In this document: positions 45,316 to 61,659 of the stretch, piece by piece
How positions within the stretch are numbered: position 1 is the stretch's first letter
Layout of the letters: each line of letters starts with the position of its first letter
Assembly: GCA_043826565.1 (NCBI GenBank)
Contig: JBDRPX010000015.1
Span: 67,317-131,316 of the forward strand
Direction of reading: 5' to 3'
Source: Candidatus Omnitrophota bacterium
GTDB lineage: Bacteria > Omnitrophota > Gorgyraeia > B26-G9
DNA: 64,000 nucleotides
Translations under genes and position numbers: made by a program
The notes under the pieces: model-generated
Seen by the model: only the letters and a program-made list of their open reading frames with translations
Database searches by the model: none
Told to the model about the DNA's origin: nothing

Positions 45316-45350
45316 TAACAAACAGTTGCGGTTTACAGTGCCACGCACTA

Positions 45351-45379
45351 TTGCGAGCCTTTATATAGTATGGTATACT
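45351..45379 (+). promoter_or_regulatory. Candidate promoter: -35 TTGCGA, 17-nt spacer, TGg-TATACT extended -10
   Basis: TTGCGA 45351-45356; TG 45371-45372; TATACT 45374-45379; would give a ~235-nt leader before ATG 45624. Confidence 0.4.
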
Positions 45380-45575
45380 TTTAGTAGAGGAAATAGTAGG
45401 TGTGTTAAAGGCAAACTCAGCGGAAGCTGAGGACGCAAAGCCGTGCGTCCTGGAGATATTATCGGGATTGGCAGGTTACAAACAGTCAAAAGATATATCT
45501 CAGGCATTGTTTGCCTGGGATTTTTTTTTGAAAGGAAGTCAAAGTGCCACGCACCCGCCCGTCGGAGACGGGCGA

Positions 45576-45610
45576 ATGACAAATGACAAATGACAAATGA
45601 CAAATGACAA
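45576..45610 (+). repeat. Perfect tandem heptamer (ATGACAA)x5 abutting the RBS of gene 45624
   Basis: Five exact copies 45576-45610, followed by atAGGGGGttaatATG. Confidence 0.95.
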
Positions 45611-45623
45611 ATAGGGGGTTAAT

Positions 45624-46571
45624 ATGCCAAGGATGCCAAGAGTGAATGTTGAAGGAGCATTATACTATATCACTTCCCGCGGAGACCGTAATCAGGAAAT
45701 ATTTAAAGATAAGGAAGATTACGCTACTTATATTGAATTATTAAAAAAATATAAAAAGCATCATGGTTTTAAATTATTCTCCTACATTCTGCTTCCGTCA
45801 CACCTCCATCTTTTAATAGAACTTTCGGCAAATTTAACAATTTCCCAGATCATGCACGACCTGAACTCTTCTTATATTAAATACTTTAATAAAAAATATG
45901 AACGCACCGGGCATTTATTTACCGAACGTTACCGCTGTGTATTAATAGAAAAAGACCCTTGGCTTAAGGCCGTTACCGCGCATATGCATTTAAATCCTGT
46001 CCGGGTAAACGCGGCAGAATCCTGGAAAGAATATTCTTTAGGCAGTGCCAAAGCTTATTTGGGGGCAAAAGACACAGAACTTGACCTGACCGAAGAGATC
46101 AAAGAGGTAAATACTCAGCTTAAAGGAGTAAAATACGAAGACTTTTTGGCCAGCCTTAACAAAGAAGAAATAAAGACATTAAAGACAAGTTTTGCCCGAA
46201 AGCTTATTGTCGGGTCCCGGGAATTTAAGAATAAAATAGAAGAAAAAGTCGAAGAGACTAAGACTCAGGAGCCCGAAGAACAGAGTGACCAGGAGAATAA
46301 ATTTATTTTCAGCGGAAGTGTCGCAGTGGTGGTTCTCCTTATTATTGTGGGATTTTTAATTAAAGGGCATTTTGATTTGAAGGAAAAATATAATTTGACT
46401 ACTCATAGAAAAAAAATAGAAATGGAACGCCGGATCCGGGAAGAAAAAGAACTGGTGACTAAGAATTTAAAAGAAAAATATGCCGCGGATGAAGTTTCGT
46501 TTGAAGCCATGCAAAAAAGGCTGGAGATTGAAAAGAAAAAAATAAAAGAACTGGAAAAGAAAATTAACTAG
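45624..46571 (+). CDS. HUH/Y1 transposase-like domain (IS200/RAYT-like) fused to a TM helix and K/E-rich coiled-coil C-terminal region
   Basis: N-terminal ~130 aa with HUH motif PSHLHLLIE and Tyr motif TERYRCVLIE; TM FIFSGSVAVVVLLIIVGFLI; C-terminal KIEMERRIREEKE... coiled coil. Confidence 0.6.
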   Translation: MPRMPRVNVEGALYYITSRGDRNQEIFKDKEDYATYIELLKKYKKHHGFKLFSYILLPSHLHLLIELSANLTISQIMHDLNSSYIKYFNKKYERTGHLFTERYRCVLIEKDPWLKAVTAHMHLNPVRVNAAESWKEYSLGSAKAYLGAKDTELDLTEEIKEVNTQLKGVKYEDFLASLNKEEIKTLKTSFARKLIVGSREFKNKIEEKVEETKTQEPEEQSDQENKFIFSGSVAVVVLLIIVGFLIKGHFDLKEKYNLTTHRKKIEMERRIREEKELVTKNLKEKYAADEVSFEAMQKRLEIEKKKIKELEKKIN

Positions 46572-46632: not shown

Positions 46633-49600
46633 ATGAAGATGATGATTAAAAAAACAATTGGTGTGCTACTGGTAGTATTGCTTGTGGTTTTCGGCTTAGC
46701 CAAAGCAGGATATCTGCAGGAAGCCGGTACCTTTCTGCAGGATTCCTGGAATTCGGGCACGAGTTCGACTGTGGCGGTGCATCCGGGCAATCAAAGTAAT
46801 TGGTCGCGCTATACTTCCCGGGACTCAAATATCCTTACTGCCGGAGGGTCAATTTATTTAGCGCCGAATACATTTACGGTGACCGATACCTCGGATACGG
46901 ATTTTGCAAAAGGCACATTAAATAATGTAATTATCAGCGGAACCGGTAATGGTTCTCAGCTGGAACTGACCTCCAGCGTTACGGACCCGTTTGCTTCTCA
47001 ATTAGGTGAATGGTTAAATTTGCCGTCTATACCCGCTCCGGGATTATTTTCTACCTATACCAAAATGGGCAATTATATTTATTGTTTGTTTGGCTCCGGG
47101 GACGGAAAACAGTTCGGCCGCTTTAATCTTACCAGTAAAACCTGGGAATTTTTAACGCCGATTCCGGTGGCGGTAGCGGTTGGGGCAACAATCACTAACG
47201 ACGGAGAATATATTTATGCTTTGCGCGGTTCCGGTTCAAGAGACGCGTATTTTTATCTGCCTCCGGAAGGGCCTGATCCGGACCCGGCAAATACTTTATT
47301 TTCTGTAGCTTCTCCGGCTCCCGGAGAATGGAAGCAATTTCCATCTCTAACTTCCGGGGTTAATTATGGATCTAATATTGTGCGTACCGGCGGTACGCTA
47401 AGCAGTAAGTCCGGAGCTTTATACGCGATGTGCGGATCCGGATCAACAACATTTGTTAAATATGATCCGAATATCGGCGGCGGAGTATGGATGGGCAGAA
47501 GTTCCACACCGGCTACGATCGGAGAAGGCGGAGCATTAGCCTACAAGCCCGGAAGTAATTTTATATACGCGGCCCGGGGATCCCAGACAGATACATTCTG
47601 GAGATATAATATCAGCGCAAATACTTGGGATACCAGCCTTGCGGCAGTTCCTGATCTAGATCCTTCAAATACAACGACAAATATAAATGTTAGATTTTGG
47701 CAGGGTTCGGACCTGTGGTATCCGGGATCAGGTGATTATGTTTATGCCGCGGGTATGTATGATGAATATGACAGCAGTACGGTTTACCGGCGTCAAAACC
47801 GAAGCTTTTTTAAATACGGGCCGTTAAGCGGCGCGGCAACCTGGACCAGATTACCGGATGTTCCGTCATATCTTGGCGCGTATAAATTTATTATTTATGA
47901 TCCGGATGCCGGCGGCCCGACAGAAGGTGATGAACTGCAGTATTTTTCCGGGAAAAATTATACCCGGCCGTGGCGGTTTGATAATGTGAATGAAAAATGG
48001 ATAACCTTATCACAGGCACCGTATGACGCGCCTTATGGTATTAATATTTGCTATCCGGGAACCGGAGATTTTCTTTATTATATTCCGGCAGACGGTAATT
48101 ATGATTTTTACCGCTATTCAATTTCCGGAAATTCCTGGGAAAGGCTTAAAAATCTTCCTTCCGGCCCCAGATACGCGGGTACACGTTTATGTTATTTAAA
48201 CGGATATATTTATTGTTTAAAAGGATATACCTCCGGGTCTTTTTATCGTTATGCCATAGCGCAAACCCCGGGGGCAGACAATTGGGACTATTTAGCTAAT
48301 TATCCGTATACTGACTTAGAATACGGGTCCAGTATTATCGGAGTGCAGATTGCCGGCCAGGATTATATTTACGGGTTAAGAGGGAATGAATATGGTAATT
48401 TTTATCGCTATAATGTTAGCACAGATACCTGGGCAGACACAATGGCCACAATGCCGGATCAGCCGGATGGAAGTTATTTAATATTTCCGAATTATGCGGA
48501 GCCCAACGGATACAAATATATTTACGCGGCGCGCGGCCAGTACAGCAATGACATGTATAAATACGGGCCCATAGAAGAAGATGAAAATTTAACCGATGAT
48601 ATTGACGGAGATTTCCAGACTAAAGGCCGCTGGACCCAGGTTACGGATACGCCCAGTTATTTTCGTTTTTGTGAGAATTACGGAGCTTGTTTGTCTTATC
48701 AGGGAAGCGGGCCGTATATTTACGCGTTTACCGGAGATAATGATGATATTGGGTACGCGTTTAGGTTTGCCCGCTATAATATGGATACTGATGCCTGGGA
48801 TGACCTTGATTCTACTCCCATGAATCAGACTTATTTTGATTGTACCTCAACAAGTGATGCTATCTTCGCGGTGGGTTATTATGGCTATGGCAATTTCTGG
48901 AAATATGATTTGGCTACCCAGCAATGGAATGAGCCGGTTATTGATCAATACCGCAATGAGTTGGGGACTACGGTAGTTGATAGTAATAATAATATTTATC
49001 TGGTATACGGCGGCCGGGACGGGTACCATTATTCACATTTCTGGAAGTTTGATCCGAATCAAAACCGGTGGACGGATATTATTCGCGCGCCGTTTGTTTT
49101 AGCGGCGGGAGTTAAAGCAGAATATCTAACAAGTACAAATTCTATCTATGTTACCGAGGGCCGCGGATCAACGACATTATACAAATATAATGTCGGGACA
49201 AAGGTCTGGAGTGAATGCGCGGAATCTCCGATACGGTTTTGGCGCGGCGCGCAGTTAGCCGCGGATGATGCGAACAATATTATTTATGCTATGCCGGGCT
49301 GGGATATTAGAAATTTTTATGTATATGATGCCGCGGATTACTGGAATCAGCTGGAAAATCCGCCGAAAGCTCATGAAGATATGATCGAAGGCATGGAAGT
49401 AGCAAATGGAAAAGTTTATTTGCTTAGCGGTGATGACGAAGCAGAGTTTTATGAATACTCCCCTTTGCCGACAAATACCTGGCTGCCGAAAACAAAGGTC
49501 GGAGACCCGACTGGTGATGGGTCGGTTTTTGAAACTACCAGCCATGGCGGAGGATTGTTTTATCCGGGCTCCGGAGATTTGATGTATTGTATTACCCGGT

Positions 49601-52600
49601 CCAGCAATAAAGTGCTTTTTACATATTCTCTATCTACGGACCGGTGGAATCAGCTTGCCGAACTGCCGATCGACCCGTATGACCGCCCGACATCAATAGT
49701 GGCCGCGGGAAAACCATGGTTTTTTATCTTTAATTATCGCTGGGATGATTATCTGATGCGCTATCATGTGGCGGAGAATATTTATGACCTGCCGTCTTTT
49801 TTACCCGCGGAAATCAATGAGGATTGCGCTTTAGCCGGGTATAAAGGATATATTTATTATCTAAACAGAGATACGTTTTACAGATATAATGCCCAGCTTA
49901 ATCTTTGGTCGGAGTTGCTGGCTCCGCCGATAACATTTGATGAAACTGATACAACAATGCGGATTGTTGAGTTCGAAGGGCAGCCGTACGCGTATGTTAC
50001 CGGAGGTAATAACCGAAATGGATTTTACCGTTATAGTATTACCAGCAATACCTGGCAGGAATTACCTTCTCCGCCGGCGAATTTTGAAGTGGGAACTTCC
50101 ATGACGCAAAAAGGAAATTATTTATATATACTGCGGGGAGAGTCAAATGCGTTTTGGGAATACAATCTGGTAAATAATACCTGGGCTTTGGCAACAGATA
50201 CGCCGCAATATGTGTATTATGGCGGGCAGGTTGTGTATCCGGGCAGCGGGGATTATGTTTATGTTATGACCGGAAATCATACGGCAAATCTTTACCGGTA
50301 CAATACCGTGGCCAAAAATTGGACCGCGCGGACTCCGGCTCCGGTACCTATGCATAATGCGCATTCAGAATTGATCTATCCCGGTTTTGGCGATTATTTA
50401 TTTGTCCTGCAGGGAGCCTCATATAATACTGATCAAGGTTCATATGTATTTATGCGGTATAAAATGTCTGATCCGGGCGGGGATACCTGGGAAGAACTTA
50501 CGCCGTCGTCTTTTGCGGTTAGGCATCCGGGAACTTTGATCTGGGGGGACGGAGAATATTTTTATGGTATAGAAGGCCGGGGGAACAAGCTGGCCAGATA
50601 TTATTCTTACTGTTTCGGCGACTATACTTCGGGAGTAAAAGAGATCGGCAATCACAGCGGATGGGGCGATGTCAGCTGGATTTTTAACAGTGTGCAGTCG
50701 GCAGCAATTGCTTTTCGCAGCGGGGATACTTTGGATCTATCCGATGCGGATGTCTGGTCTAATGTGGCCGATGTTACTAATGGCCAGGACTTAAGTAATT
50801 CCGCGGCTTGCGCGAATACGGATAAATATATCCAGTATAAGATTACTTTTTCCACGGATGAATTAGCGGAGAGCCCGGCCATTGAACAAATGCAGTTTGA
50901 ATGGGAAAAATATCCGATTTCTCAGACTTTGACCTCCTCTATTTACGATACTACCTTTCTTACCAACAGAATCCTTGATCTTTCCTGGCAGGAAACTCTG
51001 CCCCTGGGAACGGACGCGCGTTTTCAGATGCGCACTTCCGCGGATAATAATACCTGGTCCAGCTGGATGGGAATTGCCGCGGCGCAGGTTTTAACTAATG
51101 ACCTCTCTGATGAGGATGATTATGCCAGATCAAGTAAGATCCAAATAGCTTCCGGGATAGCAAAACTGTTTAAAGAATTAGCTGATTTTAAATATATGCA
51201 GACGATTACAGTGGATAATCTGGGCGGCCCTTTAGAGACCAATAAATTAGTAAATGTGGTGATCCCCAAGACAAATACCCATTTTTGGAATAATGTCAGA
51301 GATGACGGATATGATGTTCGTTTTTATGACGGAACCCAGAAATATGAATATAAACTGATTGATTTTGACCGGGCAAATAAAACCGGAGCGTTCTTAGTTC
51401 AGATCCCGTCTCTGCCCGCGGATGATGAGCTGTCAATATATATGCTTTATGACAGTCCTTCCGCGGATACAGAAAGCAATGAGGCTTTGCGTATTGATGT
51501 AAGAGAATCTGATCTGGCCGCGAGATGGAATTTTGATCAGACTATTGGAAATACTGTCCCGGATTCCTCCGGCAATAATAATAACGGATATTTTATGAGC
51601 AGTCCGTTATGGACCACCGAAGGAAAATTCGGCGGAGCTTTAAGCTGTGACGGCCTTGATGATTATGTAACAGTTCCGAGCACCTCGTCTTTACAGCTTA
51701 CCGGAGATATGACCTTGGGTATCTGGGTGTATCCGGAAAATGTCGGCACTAACTGGTATATGCAGACAATCCATAAAAGATATTGGGGAGAATTTTCCTT
51801 TGGTATTTACCGGGCCGGAAGTTTAGGCTATCTTCAGGGGTATGGTACGAGTTCTTATAATTCCTGGTCGCTTTCCAATTATAATAAAGTTCAAAATAAT
51901 AAATGGCATCATCTGGTTGTGGTCCGAGACGGCACAACCAAGCAGATCACTTCCTATATTAACGGAGTACAGCAGCGTTCCTATAATTATGCCAGCGGCT
52001 ATCAGCCGGTAACCTCATATGATCCGGTAATGATCATGCGCGGATATACCGGGTATGAAATTAAAGGAAAAGTAGACCATACAACAATTCATAATGTTCC
52101 GCTTACGGCCGCGGAAGTTGAACAGCTCTACTTAGGGTATGATCTAAGCAACCCGGAAGATTTGTCGATAAATGAAAGTTCCGCTACCTGTGTAAATCTC
52201 GCGGGATGGTTATATAAAGTTCCGATTACGGTTACGAATAATTCCGCCAGCATCGTAAATAATTCGATTATAACCATAAATGCCGAACAATGGCATGAAT
52301 TCTGGCAGCATGTAAACAGCGACGGCAGTGATGTGCGGGCAGTTGATTCTGATGATACTACCCTGCTTACTTATTATCTGCAGGAATTTGATTCCGCGGC
52401 AAAGACCGGCAGGATCAATGTAGAGATTCCTACGATCCCCGCGTCTTCAAGCAAGACGATCTATTTGTATTACGGTAATAGCGGGGCCAGTAATATTGGA
52501 AACAGTTCTCTAAACTTAGAATGGGATGTGGGTACGTATCCTGATTTTAGCGGATGGTCACGTCCTTCAACCTGGAACACAAACACCGGCATATACATGA

Positions 52601-55600
52601 TGGGCGGATACGCGCGTTTAGGCTTGAGCGCGGACACGCAAAAGACAGTAATCAATCTTCCGGCCGGAACCTATGAAATTGAATTCAATTATTATTATAT
52701 TGATTCCTGGGATTCAGAATACGGCCAGTTATATTGGAACGGTACCAGGATTTGGAATGTATCCAGCAGTACGATCCCGTCCGGGCCTGATGTCGGCGGA
52801 TACAGTACTTACGGCGACCGCGTGGACCATCCGGCGTTTAAGGTTACGGTTGTTCATCCCGGAGGGAACGCGGTTTTACGTTTTGCTTCCACGACAAATG
52901 AAAGCACGGTTAATGAAAGTTTTGGTGTGAATAATATTATTATCCGCACATTACAGTCCTCAACATTGGAAGTTACTCCGCCGTATGTAACGGAAAATAA
53001 TATTTATGATACCGGAACTTATTACACGGACAATCCGGTTGTTCAGCCGATATTGGGTGTTTTTTATGAAGGTAATATATCAAATTTCCAGGCGGTTACT
53101 ACAGAGCCGTCAAATACGGATATCGGGTTCCAGGTTTCGGCGGACGGGTATAACTGGTATTGGTATTCAACCGGTGATTGGCGAAAAACAGAACTGGGAT
53201 ATCTTAATACAAACAGCGCGGCCCAGATAAATTCTAACCTGGTGAATTTTCAGTCAAAATTCCCGGCTGGTGATTTTTATTACCGGGCATTTTTAAATTC
53301 TAGCGGTACGAATACCCCGGAACTCAATGAGGTGAGAATTACTTTAACCAGTCCGCCGAGTTATTATTTTGACGCGGCGGCCGGAGAGGCTGTAAATACG
53401 ATCAATGAAGATTGTCTGGATGACCGGTATATTCAATACCGGACAACTTTGTATTCCTACGGAGAAAGTACGCCGGTTATTGACAGTGTCAGTATTGATT
53501 ATATTAAATCAGAAGTAAATGTAACCTCCCCTAACGGCGGTGAGGAATGGCCGGTTGCTTCGGCTCAAACAATCACCTGGACTTCCGCGGGTGTTGATGA
53601 CGCGGCTTCGCATGTGAAGATAGAATATTCATCAAATAACGGAACCAGCTGGAATACGATAATTGGTTCCACGGCAAATGACGGCAGTTATCCCTGGACT
53701 GTGGAAAATTCCGCTTCTCCTAATTGTTTAGTCCGGATCACTTCTGTGGAATTTCCCACGGTTATTGATCAGTCTGACGCGGTATTTCAGATCATGGGCC
53801 TTATTCTTACCGCGCCCAATGGCGGCCAAGTATGGGAAGTAAACCGGATCCATACGATTACCTGGACATCTTCAGGTACGGTCAGTAATGAATTAACTAT
53901 TGAATATTCTACGAATAATGGCACCAGCTGGGCCGGAACTTTGGCAACTCAGCGGCCGAATACCGGTACTACTAATTGCCAGATGCCGAATGTTAATTCT
54001 GATGCGGTTCGGATCCGGATATTTGACTCCCTTAATACTAATGTTATTGATGTTTCCGACGCGGTTATGTCCATTGTTCCGGCACCGGTGATCACCATAA
54101 ATACTCCGAACGGCGCAGAGCAATGGATCGTGGGCGATACTTATACCATAGATTGGCAAACCAATTCCCGCCAGTTCTCGGCGAATGTAATATTGGAATA
54201 TTCCAAAGATAATTTCAGTACAACTGTTCCCATTATTACTAAGAGTATTGGAACTGCGGCCGGCCCAAACAATAATGATGACATTTCCGGAAGCCATGAC
54301 TGGGTAGTTCCGGAAGATATATCCACGACAGTAAAGATAAGAATAAGGGAAGAAAGTATTCCTCCGGCACGGGATACGCAGAGTATTATCTGGGATATGT
54401 CGGATAATAATTTTTCGCTTATTTTCCCGTATATTACGATAAGTTCACCGCAGGAAGAGGTTACCTGGGTTTCCGGAGATGCTCATGATATTACCTGGAC
54501 ATTCTTTGGAACAGTAAGCAATGATCTGCTCCTTGAATATACAACTGACGGGTCTAATTTCACGACTATTGACGATAACCAAGCTAATGACGGATTATAT
54601 TCCTGGACTGTTCCGGATGAAGATTCAGCTACGGTGCAGGTAAGAATTACGGATAATGCCTGGAATCAGGTTACGGGGATTTCTCCGGTATTTACAATTA
54701 TTCCCTATCCGGTGCTTAAAGTTTTATATCCGAACGGCGGTGAAGTATTGGCGATTGGAGCTACTTATGAACTTCGCTGGACTTCTTTTGGCCAGAAATT
54801 AGCCTCCGGCGGCGCGGATTATTTTAATATTGATATCTGGTATTCCGCGAATAATGGAACTACCTGGGCTGTTGTCAGTTTAGGCCAGGCTAATGACGGG
54901 TCTTTGAACTGGCAGACGGCTGATGCCGAAACCACGGAGGCTTTAGTCAAAGTTGAAGATAGTAATGACCTGCTGATTGTGGATACTTCGGATGCTGTTT
55001 TTGAAATCACAAATCCGGTTCTGACAATTACTTCTCCGAACGGCGCGGAAGGGTGGTACGCAACCGGTACGTATGATATAACCTGGGATTCTTTGGGAGC
55101 GGTCAGCAATAATCTGTTATTAGAGTATTCAACTAATGCCGGTGTTTCCTGGACAACGATTGCCGGCAGCCAGAATAATGATCATGTTTATTCCTGGACG
55201 GTTGCCGATGTTATTTCTGATCAGGTCAAAATAAAAATTACCGATAGCAATCGTCCTTTGGTTTGGGATGATTCTGATGCTAATTTCAGTATTCTTGCTC
55301 CGACAATTACAGTTACCGTACCAAATGGCGGAGAAGAATGGATTATCGGAACAAGCCATGGTATAGAATGGGCCACACAAGGCGGAGATGTTAACGCGGT
55401 TAAAGATAATCTGACGATCCAATATTCATCTAACGGAGGAGGGTCTTGGAATGATCTATGGACCGGCTTGGCAAATTCCGGAAGTCAGGCGTGGGAAATT
55501 CCGGATGATTTGTCCGATAACTGTCTGATCAGGATTTTTGACGCGTTCCGTCCGGCTACCATAGACCAGTCTGACGCGATGTTCGCGATTAAGATTCCGT

Positions 55601-58600
55601 ATGTGGATATTATTGCGCCGAACGGCGGAGAAAGCTGGCCGATCGGAACAACTCAGAGTATAAACTGGGGGTCTTTGGGAACAGTCAGCAATAATCTGGT
55701 TATTGAATATTCTAAAGATAATTTTGTCAGCAACATTAATACAATTTCTACTTTTGAAGCAAATGACGGTTTATATGAATGGCTGTCTGTAGCGGATGAT
55801 TATTCGGTAACAGTTAAAATCAGGATCACTGACGCGGATAATCCGTCAATTACCGATACCTCAGAAACAGCGTTTACGATCGCGTATCCGTTAATTACGG
55901 TTACGGTGCCGAATGGCGGAGAAATATGGACCGTCGGTGATACGGAAAATATTACCTGGACTAACACCGGAAGCGTGGGCAATGATCTGAAGATCGAATA
56001 CTCTAAAGACAATTTTAACGCGGATACGAACATGATTATTGTTTCCACGGCAAACACCGGCAGTTACAGCTGGCCGTCAATCCCTAATGATGTTTCCGCT
56101 TCGGTAAGGGTACGGATTACGGATAATACCCGTCCGGTAGTTTGGGACAGATCTAACGGGAATTTTACGATTTTGCCGATTCCGGCAATTACGATTACCG
56201 CGCCCAATGGCGGAGAAATATGGCGTTATGGAACAACCCAGAGTATTACCTGGGAAGATAATGGCGGGTTGATTTCCAATAATCTGACCATAACATATTC
56301 TACGGATAATGGAACTACCTACACCGGAAGTATTATTACCGGAGCGGCAAATATCGGTTCCTACAGCTGGAACATTCCGGATGATGTACATCCGCAATGT
56401 TTTCTTAGGATCCAGGATGCGCAAAGGCCGTCGACAAATGACATTTCCGATGCGTCATTTATCATTGCTGATCCGCGGATCACCATAACTTCACCTAATG
56501 GCGGAGAAGTCTGGGCGGTTGCTGATCAGGCGCCGATAACCTGGACTACCGAAGGCACGATCAGTAATAATCTGATCCTGCAGTATTCCGGTAACGGAGG
56601 ATCCAGTTATACGCAGGTTGCTTCCGGAATAAGTAATACCGGAGCATATACCTGGACAGTTCCGGATGATGTTACGACTAATGCTTTATTTGAAATAACT
56701 GACGGAAACCGGCCGGTAAGCAAGGATATTTCGAATGCGGTATTCCGGATCATTGCTATGCCGCTAATTGATATTACAACTCCGGACGGCGGCGAAGAAT
56801 TTGTTCTGGGAGATACCTCATCTATTACCTGGACATGGTTAGGTTTATCTATTTCAAATAATTTATTGATTGATTATTCCGGAGACGGATTTGCTACGCG
56901 CAGAGTAATTGCTTCCGTGGAAGCAAATGACGGTTTGTATACCTGGGCGATCCCGGATGACGCGCTTACCGGCTCGACACTTAAGATGAGGATCACTGAC
57001 GGTAATCGTACGGAAATAACTAATCAGTCCGGCGGATATTTTAGAATTCGCGGTGGTTTTACAATCCTTTCACCTAACGGCGGTGAAAACTGGGTAGCTA
57101 AATCGGATCATTCAGTTACCTGGCAGACAAAAGGAACTATTTCTAGGGTAAAACTTGAATACAGTACGGATAACGGATTGAACTGGTCTATGGTCGCTTC
57201 GAATGTGTCTAATGCCGGAGCCTACACCTGGATATTACCGGATGCGCAGTCTGTGCAGGCAAGAATCCGGATTTCCGATGTGGATGATCCAACTGTAAAT
57301 GACCAGAATGATGCGACGTTTAATATTGTTTATGCTTCGGTTGTGTTTAATGTTTTGGACTATGATACGTTGCAGCATTTGCAGGATATAAATACGAATG
57401 AGCCGTATACCGGATGGAATGATTCCGGAGTTAATTCTCCGATTAGCCGGATGCAGCAGTACCCCTATGGCAACTATACGACATTTTTCTCTAAAACCAA
57501 CTACATTGATAATAGTGTTAGCTGGGTAGCGCCAAAATCCGGGACCGATACGTATGTTATCAATACCTATCTGGAAAACTCCGCGTCCGCGCAGGTTACA
57601 TGGGAAGCGGTATTGACCTACAGTTTTAGCCCGGCCACGGATTCCTTAAGCGGTGTCGGTTCTTTGCAGAGAAAAGGAAAACTTGTCGGAACTAATGAAT
57701 TAGAACGCGTGGATATGGGGCCGGCAGTATTGACTATTTATGAACCGAATTCCACGGTGATTAGGAATCTAGTTTCCGCTAATGCTCCCGGAGATAATGG
57801 TATGTATAACTTGATGCTTACTAATACTGATTTTGAATCCGGACAAGTATATCCGGCAACTTTGACAATTACTTATAGATCAAGAGAATATACTTCCAGT
57901 GCCAGTATTGATGTTGGTTCGGAGATTCTGCAGTATGAGTTCTTTACCCAGACAGCTACTCAATTGGCCGCTTCTGTGGCGCAGATTGAAACAGCAGTCG
58001 GGGCGGGGACTCAAGCGACAATTAACAAGCTGGATGAAACCAGAGCATCTTTAGAAAATAAAGTTGACAGTTCCGCGGCAACTGTAATCGGGGTAGTAAC
58101 AGATACCAAAACAGAGCTTACGGCTAATCTTTCTTCAACCCGGGAAAGCTTAGAAGGTACCTTGGCGGCTACCAGCGAAGATTTGCAGACTACTATGAAA
58201 TCAAACATTCTCAACCGTGAGAAATCGGTCAAGGGCGGAGCTGATCTGATGATCCGATATAGAACATATTCCGGCTTAATTCCCAAGATCGATGTTTATG
58301 ATACTCAGAATGTCCAGAGAATTGATAAAGGACTTATGACTGAGATGGGCACAACCGGTATTTATGAATACAAGGTCAAGTTCTATAACAGTTGGGGGCA
58401 GGGAGATTGTACAATTGTTTGTTCGGAAGAGACCAAGGGGACTTTAGACGCATTGACAATTACGATTGTTAGGTCTACAGTAGATGATATAGCCGGACAG
58501 ACTTCGGCGATCTTAGGTTCAACCTCAGGATTAAGTGATATTGGCCAGGTGGTGGATATCTTAGGTAATCAGATCGGCCTGATTGAAGCATCATTCTCCA

Positions 58601-58890
58601 GGATCGGTAAAGAGATTGTTTCGGAGGCTCAGGGCGGCTCGAAGAGGGACAAGGAACTGGAAGTTATTTATAATCAGCTGAGCAGTATGGGAGCGCAGCT
58701 GAAAGATCTGGGACAGCTGGAATCTGTCGGCTTAGGCGGAAAAGCCGGAGTTGCGGAAGAAAAGAAGAAGGATATAGTATATCTTAAAAACAAAACTCAG
58801 GAAATGAAGGCAATGCTTGAGTTGAATAATAAGATGATCGAAAACATCAGCGCGAAACCCGTCACTCAAGTATGGTATGAATTTAAATAA
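46633..58890 (+). CDS. Giant (4,085 aa) multi-domain surface protein: Kelch-like beta-propellers, 2x DUF2341-like, LamG-like, 13 tandem ~97-aa repeats, C-terminal coiled-coil-like region
   Basis: Start at ATG 46633 (RBS GGAGAGAG); N-terminal signal/TM; uninterrupted 12.3-kb ORF; domain motifs read from the translation. Confidence 0.85.
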   Translation: MKMMIKKTIGVLLVVLLVVFGLAKAGYLQEAGTFLQDSWNSGTSSTVAVHPGNQSNWSRYTSRDSNILTAGGSIYLAPNTFTVTDTSDTDFAKGTLNNVIISGTGNGSQLELTSSVTDPFASQLGEWLNLPSIPAPGLFSTYTKMGNYIYCLFGSGDGKQFGRFNLTSKTWEFLTPIPVAVAVGATITNDGEYIYALRGSGSRDAYFYLPPEGPDPDPANTLFSVASPAPGEWKQFPSLTSGVNYGSNIVRTGGTLSSKSGALYAMCGSGSTTFVKYDPNIGGGVWMGRSSTPATIGEGGALAYKPGSNFIYAARGSQTDTFWRYNISANTWDTSLAAVPDLDPSNTTTNINVRFWQGSDLWYPGSGDYVYAAGMYDEYDSSTVYRRQNRSFFKYGPLSGAATWTRLPDVPSYLGAYKFIIYDPDAGGPTEGDELQYFSGKNYTRPWRFDNVNEKWITLSQAPYDAPYGINICYPGTGDFLYYIPADGNYDFYRYSISGNSWERLKNLPSGPRYAGTRLCYLNGYIYCLKGYTSGSFYRYAIAQTPGADNWDYLANYPYTDLEYGSSIIGVQIAGQDYIYGLRGNEYGNFYRYNVSTDTWADTMATMPDQPDGSYLIFPNYAEPNGYKYIYAARGQYSNDMYKYGPIEEDENLTDDIDGDFQTKGRWTQVTDTPSYFRFCENYGACLSYQGSGPYIYAFTGDNDDIGYAFRFARYNMDTDAWDDLDSTPMNQTYFDCTSTSDAIFAVGYYGYGNFWKYDLATQQWNEPVIDQYRNELGTTVVDSNNNIYLVYGGRDGYHYSHFWKFDPNQNRWTDIIRAPFVLAAGVKAEYLTSTNSIYVTEGRGSTTLYKYNVGTKVWSECAESPIRFWRGAQLAADDANNIIYAMPGWDIRNFYVYDAADYWNQLENPPKAHEDMIEGMEVANGKVYLLSGDDEAEFYEYSPLPTNTWLPKTKVGDPTGDGSVFETTSHGGGLFYPGSGDLMYCITRSSNKVLFTYSLSTDRWNQLAELPIDPYDRPTSIVAAGKPWFFIFNYRWDDYLMRYHVAENIYDLPSFLPAEINEDCALAGYKGYIYYLNRDTFYRYNAQLNLWSELLAPPITFDETDTTMRIVEFEGQPYAYVTGGNNRNGFYRYSITSNTWQELPSPPANFEVGTSMTQKGNYLYILRGESNAFWEYNLVNNTWALATDTPQYVYYGGQVVYPGSGDYVYVMTGNHTANLYRYNTVAKNWTARTPAPVPMHNAHSELIYPGFGDYLFVLQGASYNTDQGSYVFMRYKMSDPGGDTWEELTPSSFAVRHPGTLIWGDGEYFYGIEGRGNKLARYYSYCFGDYTSGVKEIGNHSGWGDVSWIFNSVQSAAIAFRSGDTLDLSDADVWSNVADVTNGQDLSNSAACANTDKYIQYKITFSTDELAESPAIEQMQFEWEKYPISQTLTSSIYDTTFLTNRILDLSWQETLPLGTDARFQMRTSADNNTWSSWMGIAAAQVLTNDLSDEDDYARSSKIQIASGIAKLFKELADFKYMQTITVDNLGGPLETNKLVNVVIPKTNTHFWNNVRDDGYDVRFYDGTQKYEYKLIDFDRANKTGAFLVQIPSLPADDELSIYMLYDSPSADTESNEALRIDVRESDLAARWNFDQTIGNTVPDSSGNNNNGYFMSSPLWTTEGKFGGALSCDGLDDYVTVPSTSSLQLTGDMTLGIWVYPENVGTNWYMQTIHKRYWGEFSFGIYRAGSLGYLQGYGTSSYNSWSLSNYNKVQNNKWHHLVVVRDGTTKQITSYINGVQQRSYNYASGYQPVTSYDPVMIMRGYTGYEIKGKVDHTTIHNVPLTAAEVEQLYLGYDLSNPEDLSINESSATCVNLAGWLYKVPITVTNNSASIVNNSIITINAEQWHEFWQHVNSDGSDVRAVDSDDTTLLTYYLQEFDSAAKTGRINVEIPTIPASSSKTIYLYYGNSGASNIGNSSLNLEWDVGTYPDFSGWSRPSTWNTNTGIYMMGGYARLGLSADTQKTVINLPAGTYEIEFNYYYIDSWDSEYGQLYWNGTRIWNVSSSTIPSGPDVGGYSTYGDRVDHPAFKVTVVHPGGNAVLRFASTTNESTVNESFGVNNIIIRTLQSSTLEVTPPYVTENNIYDTGTYYTDNPVVQPILGVFYEGNISNFQAVTTEPSNTDIGFQVSADGYNWYWYSTGDWRKTELGYLNTNSAAQINSNLVNFQSKFPAGDFYYRAFLNSSGTNTPELNEVRITLTSPPSYYFDAAAGEAVNTINEDCLDDRYIQYRTTLYSYGESTPVIDSVSIDYIKSEVNVTSPNGGEEWPVASAQTITWTSAGVDDAASHVKIEYSSNNGTSWNTIIGSTANDGSYPWTVENSASPNCLVRITSVEFPTVIDQSDAVFQIMGLILTAPNGGQVWEVNRIHTITWTSSGTVSNELTIEYSTNNGTSWAGTLATQRPNTGTTNCQMPNVNSDAVRIRIFDSLNTNVIDVSDAVMSIVPAPVITINTPNGAEQWIVGDTYTIDWQTNSRQFSANVILEYSKDNFSTTVPIITKSIGTAAGPNNNDDISGSHDWVVPEDISTTVKIRIREESIPPARDTQSIIWDMSDNNFSLIFPYITISSPQEEVTWVSGDAHDITWTFFGTVSNDLLLEYTTDGSNFTTIDDNQANDGLYSWTVPDEDSATVQVRITDNAWNQVTGISPVFTIIPYPVLKVLYPNGGEVLAIGATYELRWTSFGQKLASGGADYFNIDIWYSANNGTTWAVVSLGQANDGSLNWQTADAETTEALVKVEDSNDLLIVDTSDAVFEITNPVLTITSPNGAEGWYATGTYDITWDSLGAVSNNLLLEYSTNAGVSWTTIAGSQNNDHVYSWTVADVISDQVKIKITDSNRPLVWDDSDANFSILAPTITVTVPNGGEEWIIGTSHGIEWATQGGDVNAVKDNLTIQYSSNGGGSWNDLWTGLANSGSQAWEIPDDLSDNCLIRIFDAFRPATIDQSDAMFAIKIPYVDIIAPNGGESWPIGTTQSINWGSLGTVSNNLVIEYSKDNFVSNINTISTFEANDGLYEWLSVADDYSVTVKIRITDADNPSITDTSETAFTIAYPLITVTVPNGGEIWTVGDTENITWTNTGSVGNDLKIEYSKDNFNADTNMIIVSTANTGSYSWPSIPNDVSASVRVRITDNTRPVVWDRSNGNFTILPIPAITITAPNGGEIWRYGTTQSITWEDNGGLISNNLTITYSTDNGTTYTGSIITGAANIGSYSWNIPDDVHPQCFLRIQDAQRPSTNDISDASFIIADPRITITSPNGGEVWAVADQAPITWTTEGTISNNLILQYSGNGGSSYTQVASGISNTGAYTWTVPDDVTTNALFEITDGNRPVSKDISNAVFRIIAMPLIDITTPDGGEEFVLGDTSSITWTWLGLSISNNLLIDYSGDGFATRRVIASVEANDGLYTWAIPDDALTGSTLKMRITDGNRTEITNQSGGYFRIRGGFTILSPNGGENWVAKSDHSVTWQTKGTISRVKLEYSTDNGLNWSMVASNVSNAGAYTWILPDAQSVQARIRISDVDDPTVNDQNDATFNIVYASVVFNVLDYDTLQHLQDINTNEPYTGWNDSGVNSPISRMQQYPYGNYTTFFSKTNYIDNSVSWVAPKSGTDTYVINTYLENSASAQVTWEAVLTYSFSPATDSLSGVGSLQRKGKLVGTNELERVDMGPAVLTIYEPNSTVIRNLVSANAPGDNGMYNLMLTNTDFESGQVYPATLTITYRSREYTSSASIDVGSEILQYEFFTQTATQLAASVAQIETAVGAGTQATINKLDETRASLENKVDSSAATVIGVVTDTKTELTANLSSTRESLEGTLAATSEDLQTTMKSNILNREKSVKGGADLMIRYRTYSGLIPKIDVYDTQNVQRIDKGLMTEMGTTGIYEYKVKFYNSWGQGDCTIVCSEETKGTLDALTITIVRSTVDDIAGQTSAILGSTSGLSDIGQVVDILGNQIGLIEASFSRIGKEIVSEAQGGSKRDKELEVIYNQLSSMGAQLKDLGQLESVGLGGKAGVAEEKKKDIVYLKNKTQEMKAMLELNNKMIENISAKPVTQVWYEFK
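53515..57340 (+). repeat. 13 intragenic tandem repeats (~290 nt / ~97 aa each) with consensus I[TD][IV]TSPNGGE.W..G....ITW...G..S..L.I.YS.D.G......I.......G.Y.W..P
   Basis: Repeat starts near 53515, 53800, 54090, 54430, 54715, 55020, 55300, 55600, 55890, 56180, 56470, 56765 and 57055. Confidence 0.85.
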
Positions 58891-59070: not shown

Positions 59071-59103
59071 TATAAAAATCAAAAAGATAAAACATTATAC
59101 AAT

Positions 59104-59138
59104 TAACATTTAACAATTAACAATTAATATTTAACATT
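59104..59138 (+). repeat. Tandem AT-rich heptamers (TAACATT TAACAAT TAACAAT TAATATT TAACATT) abutting the RBS of gene 59161
   Basis: Read from sequence; followed by tctatatAGGGAGGGaaaccATG. Confidence 0.85.
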
Positions 59139-59160
59139 TATCTATATAGGGAGGGAAACC

Positions 59161-59979
59161 ATGGAGCGGATTAAAGGATTAAGAGCCGGGATATTTATTG
59201 TTCTGTTCTTCTGTTGTGTGATCTTTATTTTTGCCCAGGAAGCGCAAGCGAATATTACCCTAAAAGTTCTTGGCGTAAACCCATCCAAAACACAGACCCA
59301 GATAGTTACCTTAAAAGCATATTTACCCAAAGAAGTCACTCCGATAGATGTGATGGATAAGGGGGATCTGTCCATGACTTACGACACTCAGCAGGGAGCG
59401 TATTTTGTATTTGGTGAGTATGAACTTAAGCCGGAAGAATCAGTAGAGCGGGAAGTGGTTATTAAAGATATCTGGATTGTTCCGGATGCGGAGATTGATA
59501 ATTTGCGTTCGGAAATTGATAAAACCATAGAGTTGATCCAAAATACGGAGTTTGAAGACCGGGCTAATTTTTTAAAAGACAGCATTGAATCAAAATTAGA
59601 CCGGATCATCAATAAGCAAAAAGCCTCCGCAGCTAATCCGCAATCGCATATTTCCGAATATCGGGATAATCTGGATCTTTTAGATGCCGCGAAACAGGAT
59701 CTTATGCTGGCGAGAAGTTTTCTTACCCAGGCAAAACGATTGCCTTCAATAACTATTTGGAAGCTGTTCTTTTTTATAGTCGGATTTCTGGCTGTTTTAG
59801 CCGGTAGTCTTTATTTTATCTGGGCAAATCAGGCTAAGGCAATGAAGGAGAATGCTCAGCAAACGGAAACATCCGCGAAAACGAATGAAGATGACGGACT
59901 TACTCCGGAACAGCATACCGCAGCAGAAGCAAAAGAAGTTAGTGCCGAAGATATTGAAGACCTCATGAAAAACGAATAA
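59161..59979 (+). CDS. Hypothetical secreted protein with C-terminal TM anchor
   Basis: Signal peptide, coiled-coil middle, TM IWKLFFFIVGFLAVLAGSLYFIW near the C-terminus; RBS GGGAGGG. Confidence 0.55.
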   Translation: MERIKGLRAGIFIVLFFCCVIFIFAQEAQANITLKVLGVNPSKTQTQIVTLKAYLPKEVTPIDVMDKGDLSMTYDTQQGAYFVFGEYELKPEESVEREVVIKDIWIVPDAEIDNLRSEIDKTIELIQNTEFEDRANFLKDSIESKLDRIINKQKASAANPQSHISEYRDNLDLLDAAKQDLMLARSFLTQAKRLPSITIWKLFFFIVGFLAVLAGSLYFIWANQAKAMKENAQQTETSAKTNEDDGLTPEQHTAAEAKEVSAEDIEDLMKNE

Positions 59980-61566: not shown

Positions 61567-61659
61567 TTGAAAGTAGAAAGTAGATAATTGATGGTTGAGA
61601 TTTGTAAAAATGGTTGTTTTCCAATATTCAATACTCAATTTTCAATATTCTAACAGAAT

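What the first reader, a model, noticed from the sequence alone, without database searches (positions are those of the whole stretch)
45576..45610. Perfect (ATGACAA)x5 heptamer tract abutting the RBS: candidate contingency (phase-variable) locus
Five exact tandem 7-mers end 2 nt before the AGGGGG Shine-Dalgarno of gene 45624. A second 5-unit heptamer tract (TAACAWT-type, 59104-59138) sits in the equivalent position before gene 59161. These two genes flank the giant ORF. In Haemophilus influenzae, 7-bp repeat number in the hmw1A/hmw2A promoters tunes adhesin expression by slipped-strand mispairing; an analogous mechanism here would give heritable, reversible expression states of the giant-protein locus (inference).
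Basis: partly seen in the sequence, partly recalled or inferred. Interest (0 to 1): 0.65.

Follow-up and report, generated by a model that had tools for sequence, protein, structure and literature searches.

The report
Heptamer repeat in riboswitch-controlled giant-gene leader
A perfect five-copy 7-base repeat really does sit just before the first gene of a giant-surface-protein operon in an uncultivated Omnitrophota bacterium, but this genome is littered with such 7-base arrays, so a heritable on/off or dimmer role for it is plausible and untested.

Summary
A perfect (AATGACA)x5.4 run lies at 45575-45612 and ends directly before the AGGGGG ribosome-binding site of gene 45624. A degenerate period-7 array lies at 59091-59140.

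Context changes its meaning in three ways.
- The window (a Ca. Omnitrophota MAG) holds 32 period-7 arrays against about 2 in shuffles. Nearly all are intergenic, and many abut the start codons of housekeeping genes (parA, lnt, atpF). Other Omnitrophota loci have about 7-fold fewer.
- The tract is not in a promoter. It lies in a transcribed leader: promoter, c-di-GMP-I riboswitch, terminator, conserved box GTGCCACGCAC, GC hairpin, tract, SD. The gene is a conserved, probably inactive Y1-transposase-like membrane protein that precedes the 4,085-4,101-aa gene.
- In about 80 orthologous leaders this post-terminator spacer is hypervariable. Other lineages carry independent perfect repeats there: (AGTGTAA)4.6, (AAGC)18 and (AGAC)21, the last two inside a small upstream ORF (uORF) that runs into a second terminator.

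Two copies of the box are spaced in multiples of 10.6 bp. The window's spacing is out of phase.

Verdict: a real, young, slippage-prone repeat. A contingency role is plausible at the level of the locus but is unproven here. The hmw-type mechanism is not met.

The parts
45338..45348 (+). Box 1, GTGCCACGCAC, immediately upstream of the -35 element
   Evidence: GTGCCACGCA occurs only twice in the 64 kb. It also occurs exactly twice in each of the orthologous loci L040-L045.
45351..45379 (+). Sigma-70-like promoter, TTGCGA-17-TATACT with TG extension
   Evidence: Consensus scan. A promoter-like site occupies the equivalent place in L116, and similar sequence is visible in L040 and L041.
45400..45483 (+). 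c-di-GMP-I riboswitch aptamer
   Evidence: Rfam RF01051, 60.3 bits against a gathering score of 35, full length. The same family or its GGC variant is found in 19 of 25 orthologous loci scanned.
45497..45529 (+). Intrinsic terminator, the riboswitch expression platform: 10-bp stem plus T9
   Evidence: Terminator scan and fold.
45544..45554 (+). Box A, GTGCCACGCAC, 14 nt after the terminator T-run
   Evidence: The 13-15 nt distance from the T-run is kept in nearly all orthologous leaders.
45556..45574 (+). 8-bp GC hairpin, CGCCCGTC-GGA-GACGGGCG, specific to this lineage
   Evidence: Fold. Absent from the L040, L041 and L042 leaders.
45575..45612 (+). The finding: perfect (AATGACA)x5.4 tandem repeat, predicted unpaired in the mRNA
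   Evidence: No paralogous array elsewhere in the window. Absent from the closest relatives.
45613..45618 (+). Shine-Dalgarno AGGGGG, 5 nt before the ATG
   Evidence: Sequence.
45624..46571 (+). 315-aa Y1_Tnp/RAYT-like protein with a hydrophobic segment and a coiled-coil tail. Its first codons, ATGCCAAGG ATGCCAAGA, are degenerate box copies and are the candidate box B.
   Evidence: Pfam PF01797, E=1.9e-11. NCBIfam REP_Tyr_transpos, 68.6 bits, below the cutoff of 80. Alignment of 22 orthologs. Conserved synteny with the giant gene.
46633..58890 (+). Giant ORF, 4,085 aa from the SD-preceded ATG at 46633 or 4,101 aa from 46585, with Kelch, LamG and DUF2341 domains
59091..59140 (+). Second, degenerate period-7 array (AACATTT/AACAATT type) in a 270-nt spacer specific to this lineage
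   Evidence: TRF gives 7.1 copies at 79% matches. The spacer is 16-48 nt in relatives L126-L129.
59161..59979 (+). 272-aa conserved protein that follows the giant gene across Omnitrophota
60039..60932 (+). Response-regulator diguanylate cyclase (REC-GGDEF), a possible source of the ligand sensed by the leader
   Evidence: Pfam PF00072 and PF00990.

Best explanation
What it is (shown). The tract is a young tandem expansion that has not yet accumulated point mutations. It is the most perfect member of a class of period-7 arrays specific to this lineage, which fill the intergenic DNA of this Omnitrophota genome. It lies in the transcribed leader of the operon (Y1-transposase-like membrane protein, then giant surface protein). 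Its position is downstream of a c-di-GMP-I riboswitch and terminator, between a conserved operator-like box (box A) and the ribosome-binding site. This is the one segment of the leader that evolves fast in relatives. There it shows wholesale replacement, and other lineages carry independent perfect repeats in it. A 145-nt indel polymorphism also occurs just upstream of box A.

How it most likely works (inferred). Slipped-strand mispairing adds or removes 7-bp units. That cannot change a reading frame, because TGA occurs in every frame of the unit. It cannot change promoter -35/-10 spacing either. What it changes is the length of the spacer between box A and the start-codon region, which holds degenerate box copies. 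Each step is 7 bp, about two thirds of a helical turn. Box pairs in about 40 orthologous leader types sit only at about 2, 3, 4, 5 or 6 helical turns. So unit gain or loss would move the two sites in and out of helical register for whatever protein binds them. The result would be a heritable dimmer acting on transcripts that have already passed the riboswitch.

Status. Copy-number variation, and any selection for it, are not shown.
For: 1. Perfect 38-nt run.
2. Leader anatomy: promoter, riboswitch at 60.3 bits, terminator. The tract is unpaired and flanked by a hairpin.
3. The module secretin-TPR-TPR-small gene-leader-Y1-like gene-giant gene is syntenic in L040, L041 and L042-45.
4. GTGCCACGCA occurs exactly twice per orthologous locus. 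Box A always lies 13-15 nt after the T-run.
5. Box-to-box spacings are only 20-21, 30-33, 42-43, 52-54 or 62-64 nt in 40 leader types. The best period is 10.6 nt with Rayleigh R=0.88.
6. The window's spacing is 80 or 89 nt, that is 7.55 or 8.40 turns. L040 has no repeat and a spacing of 54 nt to the +9 copy (5.09 turns). The window equals 54 + 5x7.
7. L092 and L098 have near-identical flanks, but the inter-box spacer is wholly replaced, 53 against 64 nt, a difference of about one turn.
8. A 145-nt indel falls outside the box pair, which keeps its 32-nt spacing.
9. Independent perfect SSRs occupy the same leader segment: L089/L090 (AGTGTAA)4.6 lies between two boxes and has an ORF of at least 1,358 aa downstream. 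L098 has an imperfect (91% matches) (GTGTCAAG)3.9; L114 has (AAGC)18; L116 has (AGAC)21; L123 has at least 20 copies of (AGCA).
10. In L114 and L116 the assembled frame carries a uORF into or through a 16-bp-stem terminator. The other two frames stop about 70 nt earlier.
Against: 1. Half of all spacers of at least 40 nt in this window carry a period-7 array. Arrays abut the start codons of parA, batA, atpF and others, and the only other perfect array sits upstream of lnt, next to secA. An array in this position is therefore expected without any special selection.
2. Five copies are few compared with proven heptamer switches, which have at least 11 (PMC12721329).
3. Box B is degenerate in this clade, with 2-3 mismatches, so the phasing argument for this window is weak.
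4. SSR enrichment in leaders over other non-coding DNA of the sampled loci is not significant. Leaders make up 49% of the non-coding DNA, and p is about 0.06 for the four perfect SSRs.
5. The tetranucleotide lineages precede a 521-aa ORF, not a giant gene. In related loci the equivalent gene carries an FGE-sulfatase domain.
6. No population or strain data exist for this species.
Confidence: 0.45

Rival explanations
1. Neutral by-product. This lineage has a strong propensity to create and spread period-7 arrays in any unconstrained intergenic spacer. The tract is simply the newest one. It landed in a spacer that tolerates anything and has no regulatory role.
For: - 32 arrays against about 2 in shuffles. 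A lag-7/14/21 autocorrelation peak appears only in intergenic DNA.
- Density is 5.0 per 10 kb, against 0.73 per 10 kb in 590 kb of other Omnitrophota loci.
- Spacers are expanded relative to relatives: giant gene to 272-aa gene is 270 nt against 16-48 nt, and atpE to atpF is 93 nt against 1 nt.
- Neighbouring genes are housekeeping.
- The tract is absent from the relative with 77% identity.
- The spacer is unconstrained in sequence across orthologs.
Against: - It is the longest perfect array of 32, and it sits in the one leader where relatives also carry perfect SSRs.
- Box spacing is constrained to helical multiples, so the length of this spacer is not free.
Confidence: 0.35
2. RNA-level element common to many genes. 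Heptamer arrays placed just 5' of the SD act as unstructured standby or enhancer sequence, or as a landing pad for a protein that binds one heptamer per domain (cold-shock or S1 type). This was proposed for the TAACTGA arrays of Beggiatoaceae. Under this reading copy number matters little.
For: - Seven arrays end 4-18 nt before a start codon, and an eighth ends 31 nt before one.
- Related units (TTCAATA type) recur before starts 5298, 16229 and 61660.
- The tract is predicted unpaired.
- Precedent and candidate binding proteins are discussed in PMC4679880.
Against: - Units differ widely between loci, and AATGACA has no second array in the window.
- Many arrays are stop-proximal, or paired as inverted arms rather than SD-proximal.
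- Relatives do without them.
Confidence: 0.15
3. An hmw1A/hmw2A-type rheostat. The repeats form one arm of a long 5'-UTR hairpin that is processed by RNase III, and expression falls as repeat number rises.
For: A heptamer repeat lies in the transcribed 5' UTR of a surface-protein operon.
Against: - No complementary arm exists, and the tract is unpaired in both the minimum-free-energy and centroid folds.
- It has 5 copies, against a natural minimum of 11 (PMC12721329).
Confidence: 0.03

Closest known systems
Clostridioides difficile flgB (and cmrRST) leader: a class I c-di-GMP riboswitch followed by a phase-variable element in the same 5' UTR (PMC5386303)
   Same: Same order of parts: promoter, c-di-GMP-I riboswitch with terminator, a heritably variable element, first gene. 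The variable element acts only on transcripts that read through the riboswitch. The target is a cell-surface function.
   Different: In C. difficile the variable element is a 154-bp invertible segment flipped by the tyrosine recombinase RecV. Here it is a tandem repeat, heptamer here and tetranucleotide in some relatives. Variation is not demonstrated here.
Haemophilus influenzae hmw1A/hmw2A (ATCTTTC)n 5'-UTR repeat (PMC12721329)
   Same: A 7-nt unit, transcribed as part of the 5' UTR of a large surface-protein gene. A graded effect is conceivable.
   Different: The hmw system needs at least 11 repeats, a long hairpin pairing 10 repeats with a G-rich arm, and RNase III. Here there are 5 repeats and no partner arm, and the tract is predicted single-stranded.
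TAACTGA heptamer direct-repeat arrays upstream of start codons in marine Beggiatoaceae, cyanobacteria and Bacteroidetes (PMC4679880)
   Same: Genome-wide short heptamer arrays of 2-6 or more copies, lying within a few nucleotides of start codons of functionally unrelated genes, including housekeeping genes. The phenomenon is specific to certain lineages.
   Different: There a single unit (TAACTGA) dominates. Here the units are diverse (GTCAAAA, TTCAATA, ACAAGTC, AATGACA and others), and many arrays form inverted pairs or copies of a dispersed element.
Repeat tracts that alter the spacing of regulator-binding sites, such as Neisseria meningitidis nadA (TAAA)n. This comparison rests on my own knowledge and was not checked in a paper here.
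   Same: The proposed mode of action is the same: repeat number changes the geometry between protein-binding sites rather than a reading frame.
   Different: The binding protein is unknown here. The sites lie downstream of the transcription start, in the leader. No experimental support exists.

Membership tests
SSR contingency (phase-variable) locus | Perfect or near-perfect tandem repeat tract | tested here: met
   5.4 copies at 100% identity.
SSR contingency (phase-variable) locus | The tract sits where a length change alters expression: an ORF frame, promoter spacer, regulator-site spacing or 5'-UTR element | tested here: inconclusive
   Not in an ORF frame, since TGA occurs in all frames and the uORF from GTG 45544 stops in the first unit (sequence). 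Not in a promoter spacer. It does lie between box A and the start region, and box pairs in orthologs are helically phased, but box B is degenerate here.
SSR contingency (phase-variable) locus | Copy-number heterogeneity within a population or between strains | not testable with these tools
   Only one sample carries this species. The JGI pattern scan for 2-6 copies gave 0 hits. The Logan contig break is a k=31 artefact.
SSR contingency (phase-variable) locus | Preferential association with surface or interaction genes rather than housekeeping genes | tested here: not met
   This tract precedes a giant Kelch/LamG/DUF2341 protein module. The same kind of array precedes parA, the tolC-like gene, batA and atpF, and the other perfect array sits upstream of lnt.
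SSR contingency (phase-variable) locus | Independent recurrence of SSRs at the orthologous site in other lineages | tested here: met
   L089/L090, L098, L114, L116 and L123 carry SSRs with different units. Enrichment over other non-coding DNA is only p of about 0.06.
hmw1A/hmw2A-type 5'-UTR heptamer rheostat | Heptamer SSR transcribed within the 5' UTR | tested here: met
   A promoter, a riboswitch and a terminator all lie upstream of the tract. Transcription itself is inferred.
hmw1A/hmw2A-type 5'-UTR heptamer rheostat | Long hairpin pairing about 10 repeats with a G-rich arm; at least 11 repeats in nature | tested here: not met
   5 repeats. The tract is unpaired in the minimum-free-energy and centroid structures. 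The criterion comes from PMC12721329.
hmw1A/hmw2A-type 5'-UTR heptamer rheostat | RNase III processing of the hairpin | not testable with these tools
   Needs RNA mapping.
Genome-wide start-codon-proximal heptamer arrays (TAACTGA type, PMC4679880) | Many short heptamer arrays within a few nt of start codons of unrelated genes | tested here: met
   Seven arrays end 4-18 nt before a start codon and an eighth ends 31 nt before one; 15 of 31 spacers carry an array.
Genome-wide start-codon-proximal heptamer arrays (TAACTGA type, PMC4679880) | One specific repeated unit (TAACTGA) | tested here: not met
   Units are diverse and none is TAACTGA.
c-di-GMP-I riboswitch-controlled leader | Aptamer above the Rfam gathering score, followed by an expression platform upstream of the regulated gene | tested here: met
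   RF01051 at 60.3 bits against 35, followed by a 10-bp-stem/T9 terminator. Conserved in 19 of 25 orthologous loci scanned.
Active IS200/IS605 or RAYT Y1 transposase (for gene 45624) | HUH motif plus catalytic tyrosine; mobile or multicopy | tested here: not met
   At the position that most orthologs fill with Y in 'AYIHLNP', the window has H, P0003 has C, and P0081/83/87 have F. The first His of the HUH motif is also variable. Assigning this position as the catalytic Tyr relies on my recollection of E. coli RayT Y115. The gene is single-copy and syntenic across the phylum. NCBIfam REP_Tyr_transpos scores below its cutoff.

The most novel reading that the evidence does not exclude
Omnitrophota giant-protein operons would be governed by a previously undescribed three-layer leader.
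1. A c-di-GMP-I riboswitch.
2. A pair, or with box 1 a trio, of helically phased operator boxes (RTGCCASGCA). These would be bound by the membrane-anchored, catalytically degenerate HUH/Y1-transposase-derived protein encoded immediately downstream, acting as a ToxR-like domesticated transposase regulator.
3. A hypermutable repeat in the inter-operator spacer, or in some lineages inside a terminator-coupled uORF.

The repeat would give heritable, reversible expression states of the giant surface protein in these ultra-small, possibly predatory bacteria. The window's 5-unit allele would be an out-of-register state, one slip away from an in-register one.
Probability: 0.15. Interest if true: 0.8.

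Novelty: new variant of a known kind. Interest (0 to 1): 0.55.

Why it matters
Omnitrophota are uncultivated, mostly ultra-small bacteria. Their giant extracellular proteins are thought to mediate attachment to, or attack on, other cells, and nothing is known about how these genes are controlled.

This locus gives three concrete, testable handles.
- A c-di-GMP riboswitch precedes the conserved partner gene of the giant ORF across the phylum.
- A conserved operator-like box pair sits at helical-turn spacing.
- A spacer repeatedly acquires hypermutable repeats.

If the repeats do vary, this would be the first case for stochastic, heritable switching of giant surface proteins in a candidate phylum. 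It would also be a repeat-based counterpart of the 'riboswitch then phase switch' design known from C. difficile.

Separately, the genome-wide burst of 7-bp arrays, absent from relatives, is a clean natural system for asking why heptamers are the favoured long repeat unit in bacteria.

Tried and rejected
- Promoter-spacer switch. The only sigma-70-like match that uses the tract (ATGACA-17-TAATAT) puts its -10 element over the start codon, so it cannot serve gene 45624.
- Frameshift switch. The unit has TGA in all three frames. The small ORF starting at GTG 45544 ends in the first unit whatever the copy number (sequence).
- hmw-type hairpin. The tract is unpaired in the folds.
- Member of a dispersed repeat family. 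Short-word BLAST of 45531-45623 against the window finds no second AATGACA array. GTCAAAA-type and TTCAATA-type arrays do have paralogs.
- Copy number from an independent assembly. The Logan contig starts with 30 periodic bases, a k=31 loop break, which is uninformative.
- Strain comparison. The GTDB scan gave nothing closer than 39% identity. The nearest relative, at 77%, lacks the tract. A species-specific gapped DNA pattern allowing 2-6 copies found nothing in JGI metagenomes.
- Direct evidence of copy-number differences in relatives that carry SSRs. L089 and L090 are identical. L114, L116 and L123 are different species-level lineages. Further look-ups (P0155, P0162) hit lineages without the SSR.
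- Negative control. One species without an SSR has a 100% identical leader in 7 samples.
- Statistical enrichment of SSRs in leaders over other non-coding DNA. Not significant, p of about 0.06.
- PDB sequence search with the HUH-like domain. No hit.
- Box as the start of a conserved uORF. ORF length and SD presence are not conserved among L040, L041 and L042 (by reading).
- Box as a sigma-54 promoter. Spacing and the GG/GC elements do not fit (by inspection).
- L092/L098 spacers as inversions of each other. They are not reverse complements (by inspection).

Full report
1. THE OBSERVATION

The sequence reads ...GACGGGCG AATGACA AATGACA AATGACA AATGACA AATGACA AAT AGGGGG TTAAT ATG. Tandem Repeats Finder reports 45575-45612 with period 7, 5.4 copies, 100% matches and score 76. 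It ends 2 nt before AGGGGG, and the ATG is at 45624.

An exact-period scan of the whole window, over periods 5-15, finds only this run and (ACTTGTG)x3.6 at 9850-9874 with at least three exact copies.

The second tract exists but is degenerate: 59091-59140, 7.1 copies, 79% matches.

An independent k=31 assembly of run SRR26275510 carries the same locus. Its contig begins with 30 periodic bases of tract 1. That is what a de Bruijn graph does with a periodic run of at least k+7 bases, so it confirms the run but says nothing about copy number. Tract 2 is identical there.

2. WHERE WE ARE

The protein of gene 45624 is 100% identical to an NCBI entry from a Candidatus Omnitrophota MAG.

The gene order in the window is:
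- secretin (40463-42217)
- two TPR proteins
- a 96-aa membrane protein
- a 308-nt leader
- a 315-aa Y1_Tnp-like protein
- the giant ORF, with Kelch, LamG and DUF2341 domains
- a 272-aa protein
- a REC-GGDEF diguanylate cyclase
- ATP synthase genes

The block secretin-TPR-TPR-small gene-leader-Y1-like gene-giant gene is syntenic in other Omnitrophota contigs at 77%, 53% and 48% protein identity. The 272-aa gene also follows the giant gene in relatives.

Gene 45624 is therefore not a stray transposase. It is single-copy and conserved in place. It has a hydrophobic segment and a coiled-coil tail.

In the alignment of 22 orthologs, most fill one position of the motif 'AYIHLNP' with Tyr. That position is His in the window and in two of the aligned orthologs, Cys in one, and Phe in three. 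The first His of the HUH motif also varies. Identifying this Tyr as the catalytic residue rests on my memory of E. coli RayT Y115. The NCBIfam REP_Tyr_transpos model scores 68.6 bits, below its cutoff of 80.

3. ANATOMY OF THE LEADER (45316-45623)

In order, the leader contains:
- box 1, GTGCCACGCAC (45338)
- a sigma-70-like promoter, TTGCGA-17-TATACT (45351-45379)
- a c-di-GMP-I aptamer (45400-45483; Rfam 60.3 bits against a gathering score of 35)
- an intrinsic terminator with a 10-bp stem and T9 (45497-45529)
- box A, a second GTGCCACGCAC, 14 nt further on (45544)
- an 8-bp GC hairpin (45556-45574)
- the heptamer tract
- the SD
- the ATG

The tract is thus transcribed only in transcripts that read through the riboswitch terminator. 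It is not part of a promoter. In RNA folds it is single-stranded.

4. THE TRACT IS ONE OF MANY

Intergenic DNA of this window shows a self-match peak at lags 7, 14 and 21 (0.355, 0.344 and 0.334 against a background of about 0.30). Coding DNA shows only the codon period.

A tolerant detector finds 32 period-7 arrays, against 2.2-2.4 in shuffles. About 26 of them lie in the 8.4% of the window that is intergenic. 15 of 31 spacers of at least 40 nt carry one. Seven arrays end 4-18 nt before a start codon, and an eighth ends 31 nt before one.

The genes concerned are ordinary: parA, a tolC-like gene, acrB, a histidine kinase, batA/VWA genes and atpE/atpF. The only other perfect array lies upstream of lnt, between lnt and secA.

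Some arrays are copies of dispersed elements.
- Five regions (2343, 4402, 7761, 21881 and 24682) align as an element of roughly 140-205 bp, as compared here. Its arms are inverted (GTCAAAA)n...(TTTTGAC)n arrays.
- TTCAATA-type arrays recur before starts 5298, 16229 and 61660.

AATGACA has no second array in the window.

Other Omnitrophota loci (590 kb) have 0.73 such arrays per 10 kb, against 5.0 here. Orthologous spacers are much shorter in relatives. Giant gene to 272-aa gene is 16-48 nt against 270 nt here. atpE to atpF is 1 nt against 93 nt here. So the arrays are insertions or expansions specific to this lineage.

This resembles the TAACTGA arrays described upstream of start codons in Beggiatoaceae (PMC4679880), but with many different units.

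Consequence: an array at this position carries, by itself, little evidence of a special switch.

5. WHAT RELATIVES SAY ABOUT THIS LEADER

A metagenome scan with an alignment of the Y1-like protein returned 80 orthologous loci. The riboswitch, or its GGC variant, is found at Rfam gathering score in 19 of 25 scanned loci. A core-motif regex finds it in 57 of 70 leaders.

Box A follows the terminator T-run by 13-15 nt in almost all of them. A second box lies near or over the start codon.

Across 40 leader types, the distance between the two boxes takes only the values 20-21, 30-33, 42-43, 52-54 and 62-64 nt. The best-fitting period is 10.6 nt, with Rayleigh R=0.88. The leaders are not phylogenetically independent. 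Even so, five classes recur in divergent lineages with no intermediate values. This is the signature of two protein-binding sites kept on one face of duplex DNA.

The sequence between the boxes is free to change:
- L092 and L098 are nearly identical in the flanking leader (their first 400 coding nt are 95.8% identical), but have unrelated spacers of 53 and 64 nt.
- A 145-nt indel polymorphism falls just upstream of box A and leaves the 32-nt box spacing intact.

Several lineages carry high-identity repeats, most of them perfect, in exactly this segment:

| Locus | Repeat | Identity | Context |
|---|---|---|---|
| L089/L090 | (AGTGTAA)x4.6 | perfect | between two boxes 63 nt apart; ORF of at least 1,358 aa downstream |
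| L098 | (GTGTCAAG)x3.9 | 91% matches | between two boxes |
| L114 | (AAGC)x18 | perfect | within a uORF (below) |
| L116 | (AGAC)x21 | perfect | within a uORF (below) |
| L123 | (AGCA)x20 or more | perfect | contig starts inside the repeat |

In L114 and L116, an SD and a GTG open a small ORF that reads through the tetranucleotide tract. In the assembled frame this ORF continues into (L116) or through (L114) a second, 16-bp-stem intrinsic terminator placed just before the gene. In the other two frames it stops about 70 nt earlier. This is a textbook layout for frame-dependent attenuation.

Three caveats apply.
- Those two lineages precede a 521-aa ORF rather than a giant gene. In related loci the equivalent gene carries an FGE-sulfatase domain.
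- Leaders make up about half of the non-coding DNA in the sampled loci, so the concentration of perfect SSRs in them is only marginally significant, p of about 0.06.
- I could not obtain two samples of one SSR-bearing species to see a copy-number difference directly.

As a control, a species without an SSR has an invariant leader in seven samples.

6. MECHANISM FOR THE WINDOW'S TRACT

Three routes can be excluded from the sequence or from tool results:
- a frame switch, because TGA occurs in all frames of the unit
- a promoter-spacing switch
- an hmw-type hairpin

What a slip of one unit does change is the distance from box A to the start region, by 7 bp or 0.66 turn. The closest relative, L040, has no repeat. 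Its distance from box A to the second ATGCCAAGA copy (+9) is 54 nt, or 5.09 turns, the common 53-54 class. The window's distance is 54 + 35 = 89 nt, or 8.40 turns. Three or six units would give 7.08 or 9.06 turns.

The assembled allele is therefore out of register, and one slip away from an in-register state. This fits a dimmer that works through operator phasing. However, the downstream box is degenerate in this clade, with 2-3 mismatches, so the step is inferred, not shown.

I rate the combined statement at about 0.45. That statement is: a young slippage-prone repeat in the hypervariable inter-box spacer, with any effect acting through spacer length. The purely neutral reading is close behind at 0.35. 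A general RNA-level role for SD-proximal arrays stands at 0.15.

7. COMPARISON WITH KNOWN SYSTEMS

The nearest architecture is the C. difficile flgB leader. There a class I c-di-GMP riboswitch is followed, in the same 5' UTR, by a phase-variable element that acts after transcription initiation (PMC5386303). That element is an invertible segment; here it is a repeat.

The hmw1A system shares the 7-nt unit and the 5'-UTR location, but not the hairpin, the repeat number or (as far as can be told) RNase III dependence (PMC12721329).

The genome-wide arrays resemble the TAACTGA phenomenon (PMC4679880). They also fit the general excess of heptamer repeats in prokaryotes summarised in that paper.

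Three papers on Omnitrophota were checked. The two on giant genes (bioRxiv 10.1101/2023.11.21.568195 and 10.64898/2026.06.07.730766) do not contain the words 'riboswitch' or 'c-di-GMP', and neither mentions heptamers or intergenic repeats. PMC10066038, like 10.1101/2023.11.21.568195, shows zero occurrences of 'c-di-GMP riboswitch' and 'phase variation' in the literature search.

8. VERDICT

This genome's general wealth of heptamer arrays removes most of the evidential weight of the tract alone. Novelty: a new variant of a known kind. Interest 0.55, driven mainly by the conserved riboswitch, phased boxes and hypervariable spacer design in front of Omnitrophota giant genes.

Noticed in passing
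window 45338-45348, 45544-45554; L040-L125 leaders: A conserved 10-11-nt box, RTGCCASGCA (GTGCCAGGCAC is a palindrome). It occurs upstream of the -35 element, always 13-15 nt after the riboswitch terminator, and again near or over the start codon, where it encodes M/V-P-R. The post-terminator pair is spaced only at about 21, 32, 42, 53 or 63 nt (period 10.6, R=0.88), which suggests a phased operator pair. The binding protein is unknown.
   Followed up: partly
window 45624-46571 and orthologs P0002-P0087: The 'transposase' upstream of the giant gene is a single-copy, syntenic Y1/HUH-fold protein with a transmembrane segment and a coiled-coil tail. The position expected to hold the catalytic Tyr is H, C or F in several members, including the window. 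It may be a domesticated, membrane-tethered nucleic-acid-binding protein.
   Followed up: partly
L114:2040-2270, L116:4770-5000, L123:1-200: Perfect tetranucleotide tracts of 18-21 copies lie inside a small SD-preceded uORF placed between the riboswitch terminator and a second strong terminator. Only one of the three frames carries the uORF into the second terminator, which predicts frame-dependent attenuation.
   Followed up: partly
L092:1-150 vs L098:3289-3440; L062/L072 vs L069/L112/L077: Close strains with near-identical flanks have a completely replaced inter-box spacer (53 vs 64 nt). Others differ by a 145-nt insertion with its own hairpins, placed directly after the terminator.
   Followed up: partly
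window 2343-2440, 4402-4500, 7761-7923, 21881-22062, 24682-24854: Five copies of a dispersed intergenic element, roughly 140-205 bp as compared here. Its two arms are inverted arrays of GTCAAAA-type heptamers around an AT-rich core, MITE-like or REP-like. Similar inverted-array hairpins fill the atpC-atpE and atpE-atpF junctions (61255-61345, 61563-61650).
   Followed up: partly
window 27752-27790, 28841-28880, 34272-34300, 34392-34420: REP-like elements with a CCTGTAGGG head and a variable hairpin (for example GGACAGGT...ACCTGTCC), in both orientations and in consecutive intergenic regions.
   Followed up: no
window 58891-59160, 61248-61356, 61567-61659: Intergenic spacers are greatly expanded relative to other Omnitrophota (270 vs 16-48 nt; 93 vs 1 nt). 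The extra DNA consists of hairpins plus heptamer arrays.
   Followed up: yes
window 13305-13556 and 15140-15658: Two long divergent or intergenic regions are packed with GATTA/TAATC motifs at a spacing of about 10-11 nt. They also hold repeated AAGAATGCCCC / GGGGCATTCT and an 18-bp perfect palindrome (15368-15404). Function unknown.
   Followed up: no
window 42618-42804: An 87-bp tandem repeat (2.1 copies, 80% matches) inside the coiled-coil/TPR gene 42296-44275.
   Followed up: no
L132-L138 (about 1648-1758): Within one species sampled in 7 metagenomes, a 55-bp segment spanning the 3' end of the Y1-like gene is present once (L133) or twice (the others). This is a length polymorphism unrelated to the leader.
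   Followed up: partly
L139:1-336 and 331-403; L139-L142 downstream genes: In the clade with the 253-aa form of the protein, the gene downstream in L139-L142 is an FGE-sulfatase-domain protein. L139 alone also has a DGR accessory protein (bAvd) upstream, plus a 10-copy degenerate heptamer array (CGATAAC/CGAGCAC) before box 1.
   Followed up: no
window 45576-45623: Each repeat unit carries an ATG. These open overlapping five-codon mini-ORFs (MTNDK), and the last one overlaps the real start out of frame. None has an SD, and their significance is unknown.
   Followed up: no
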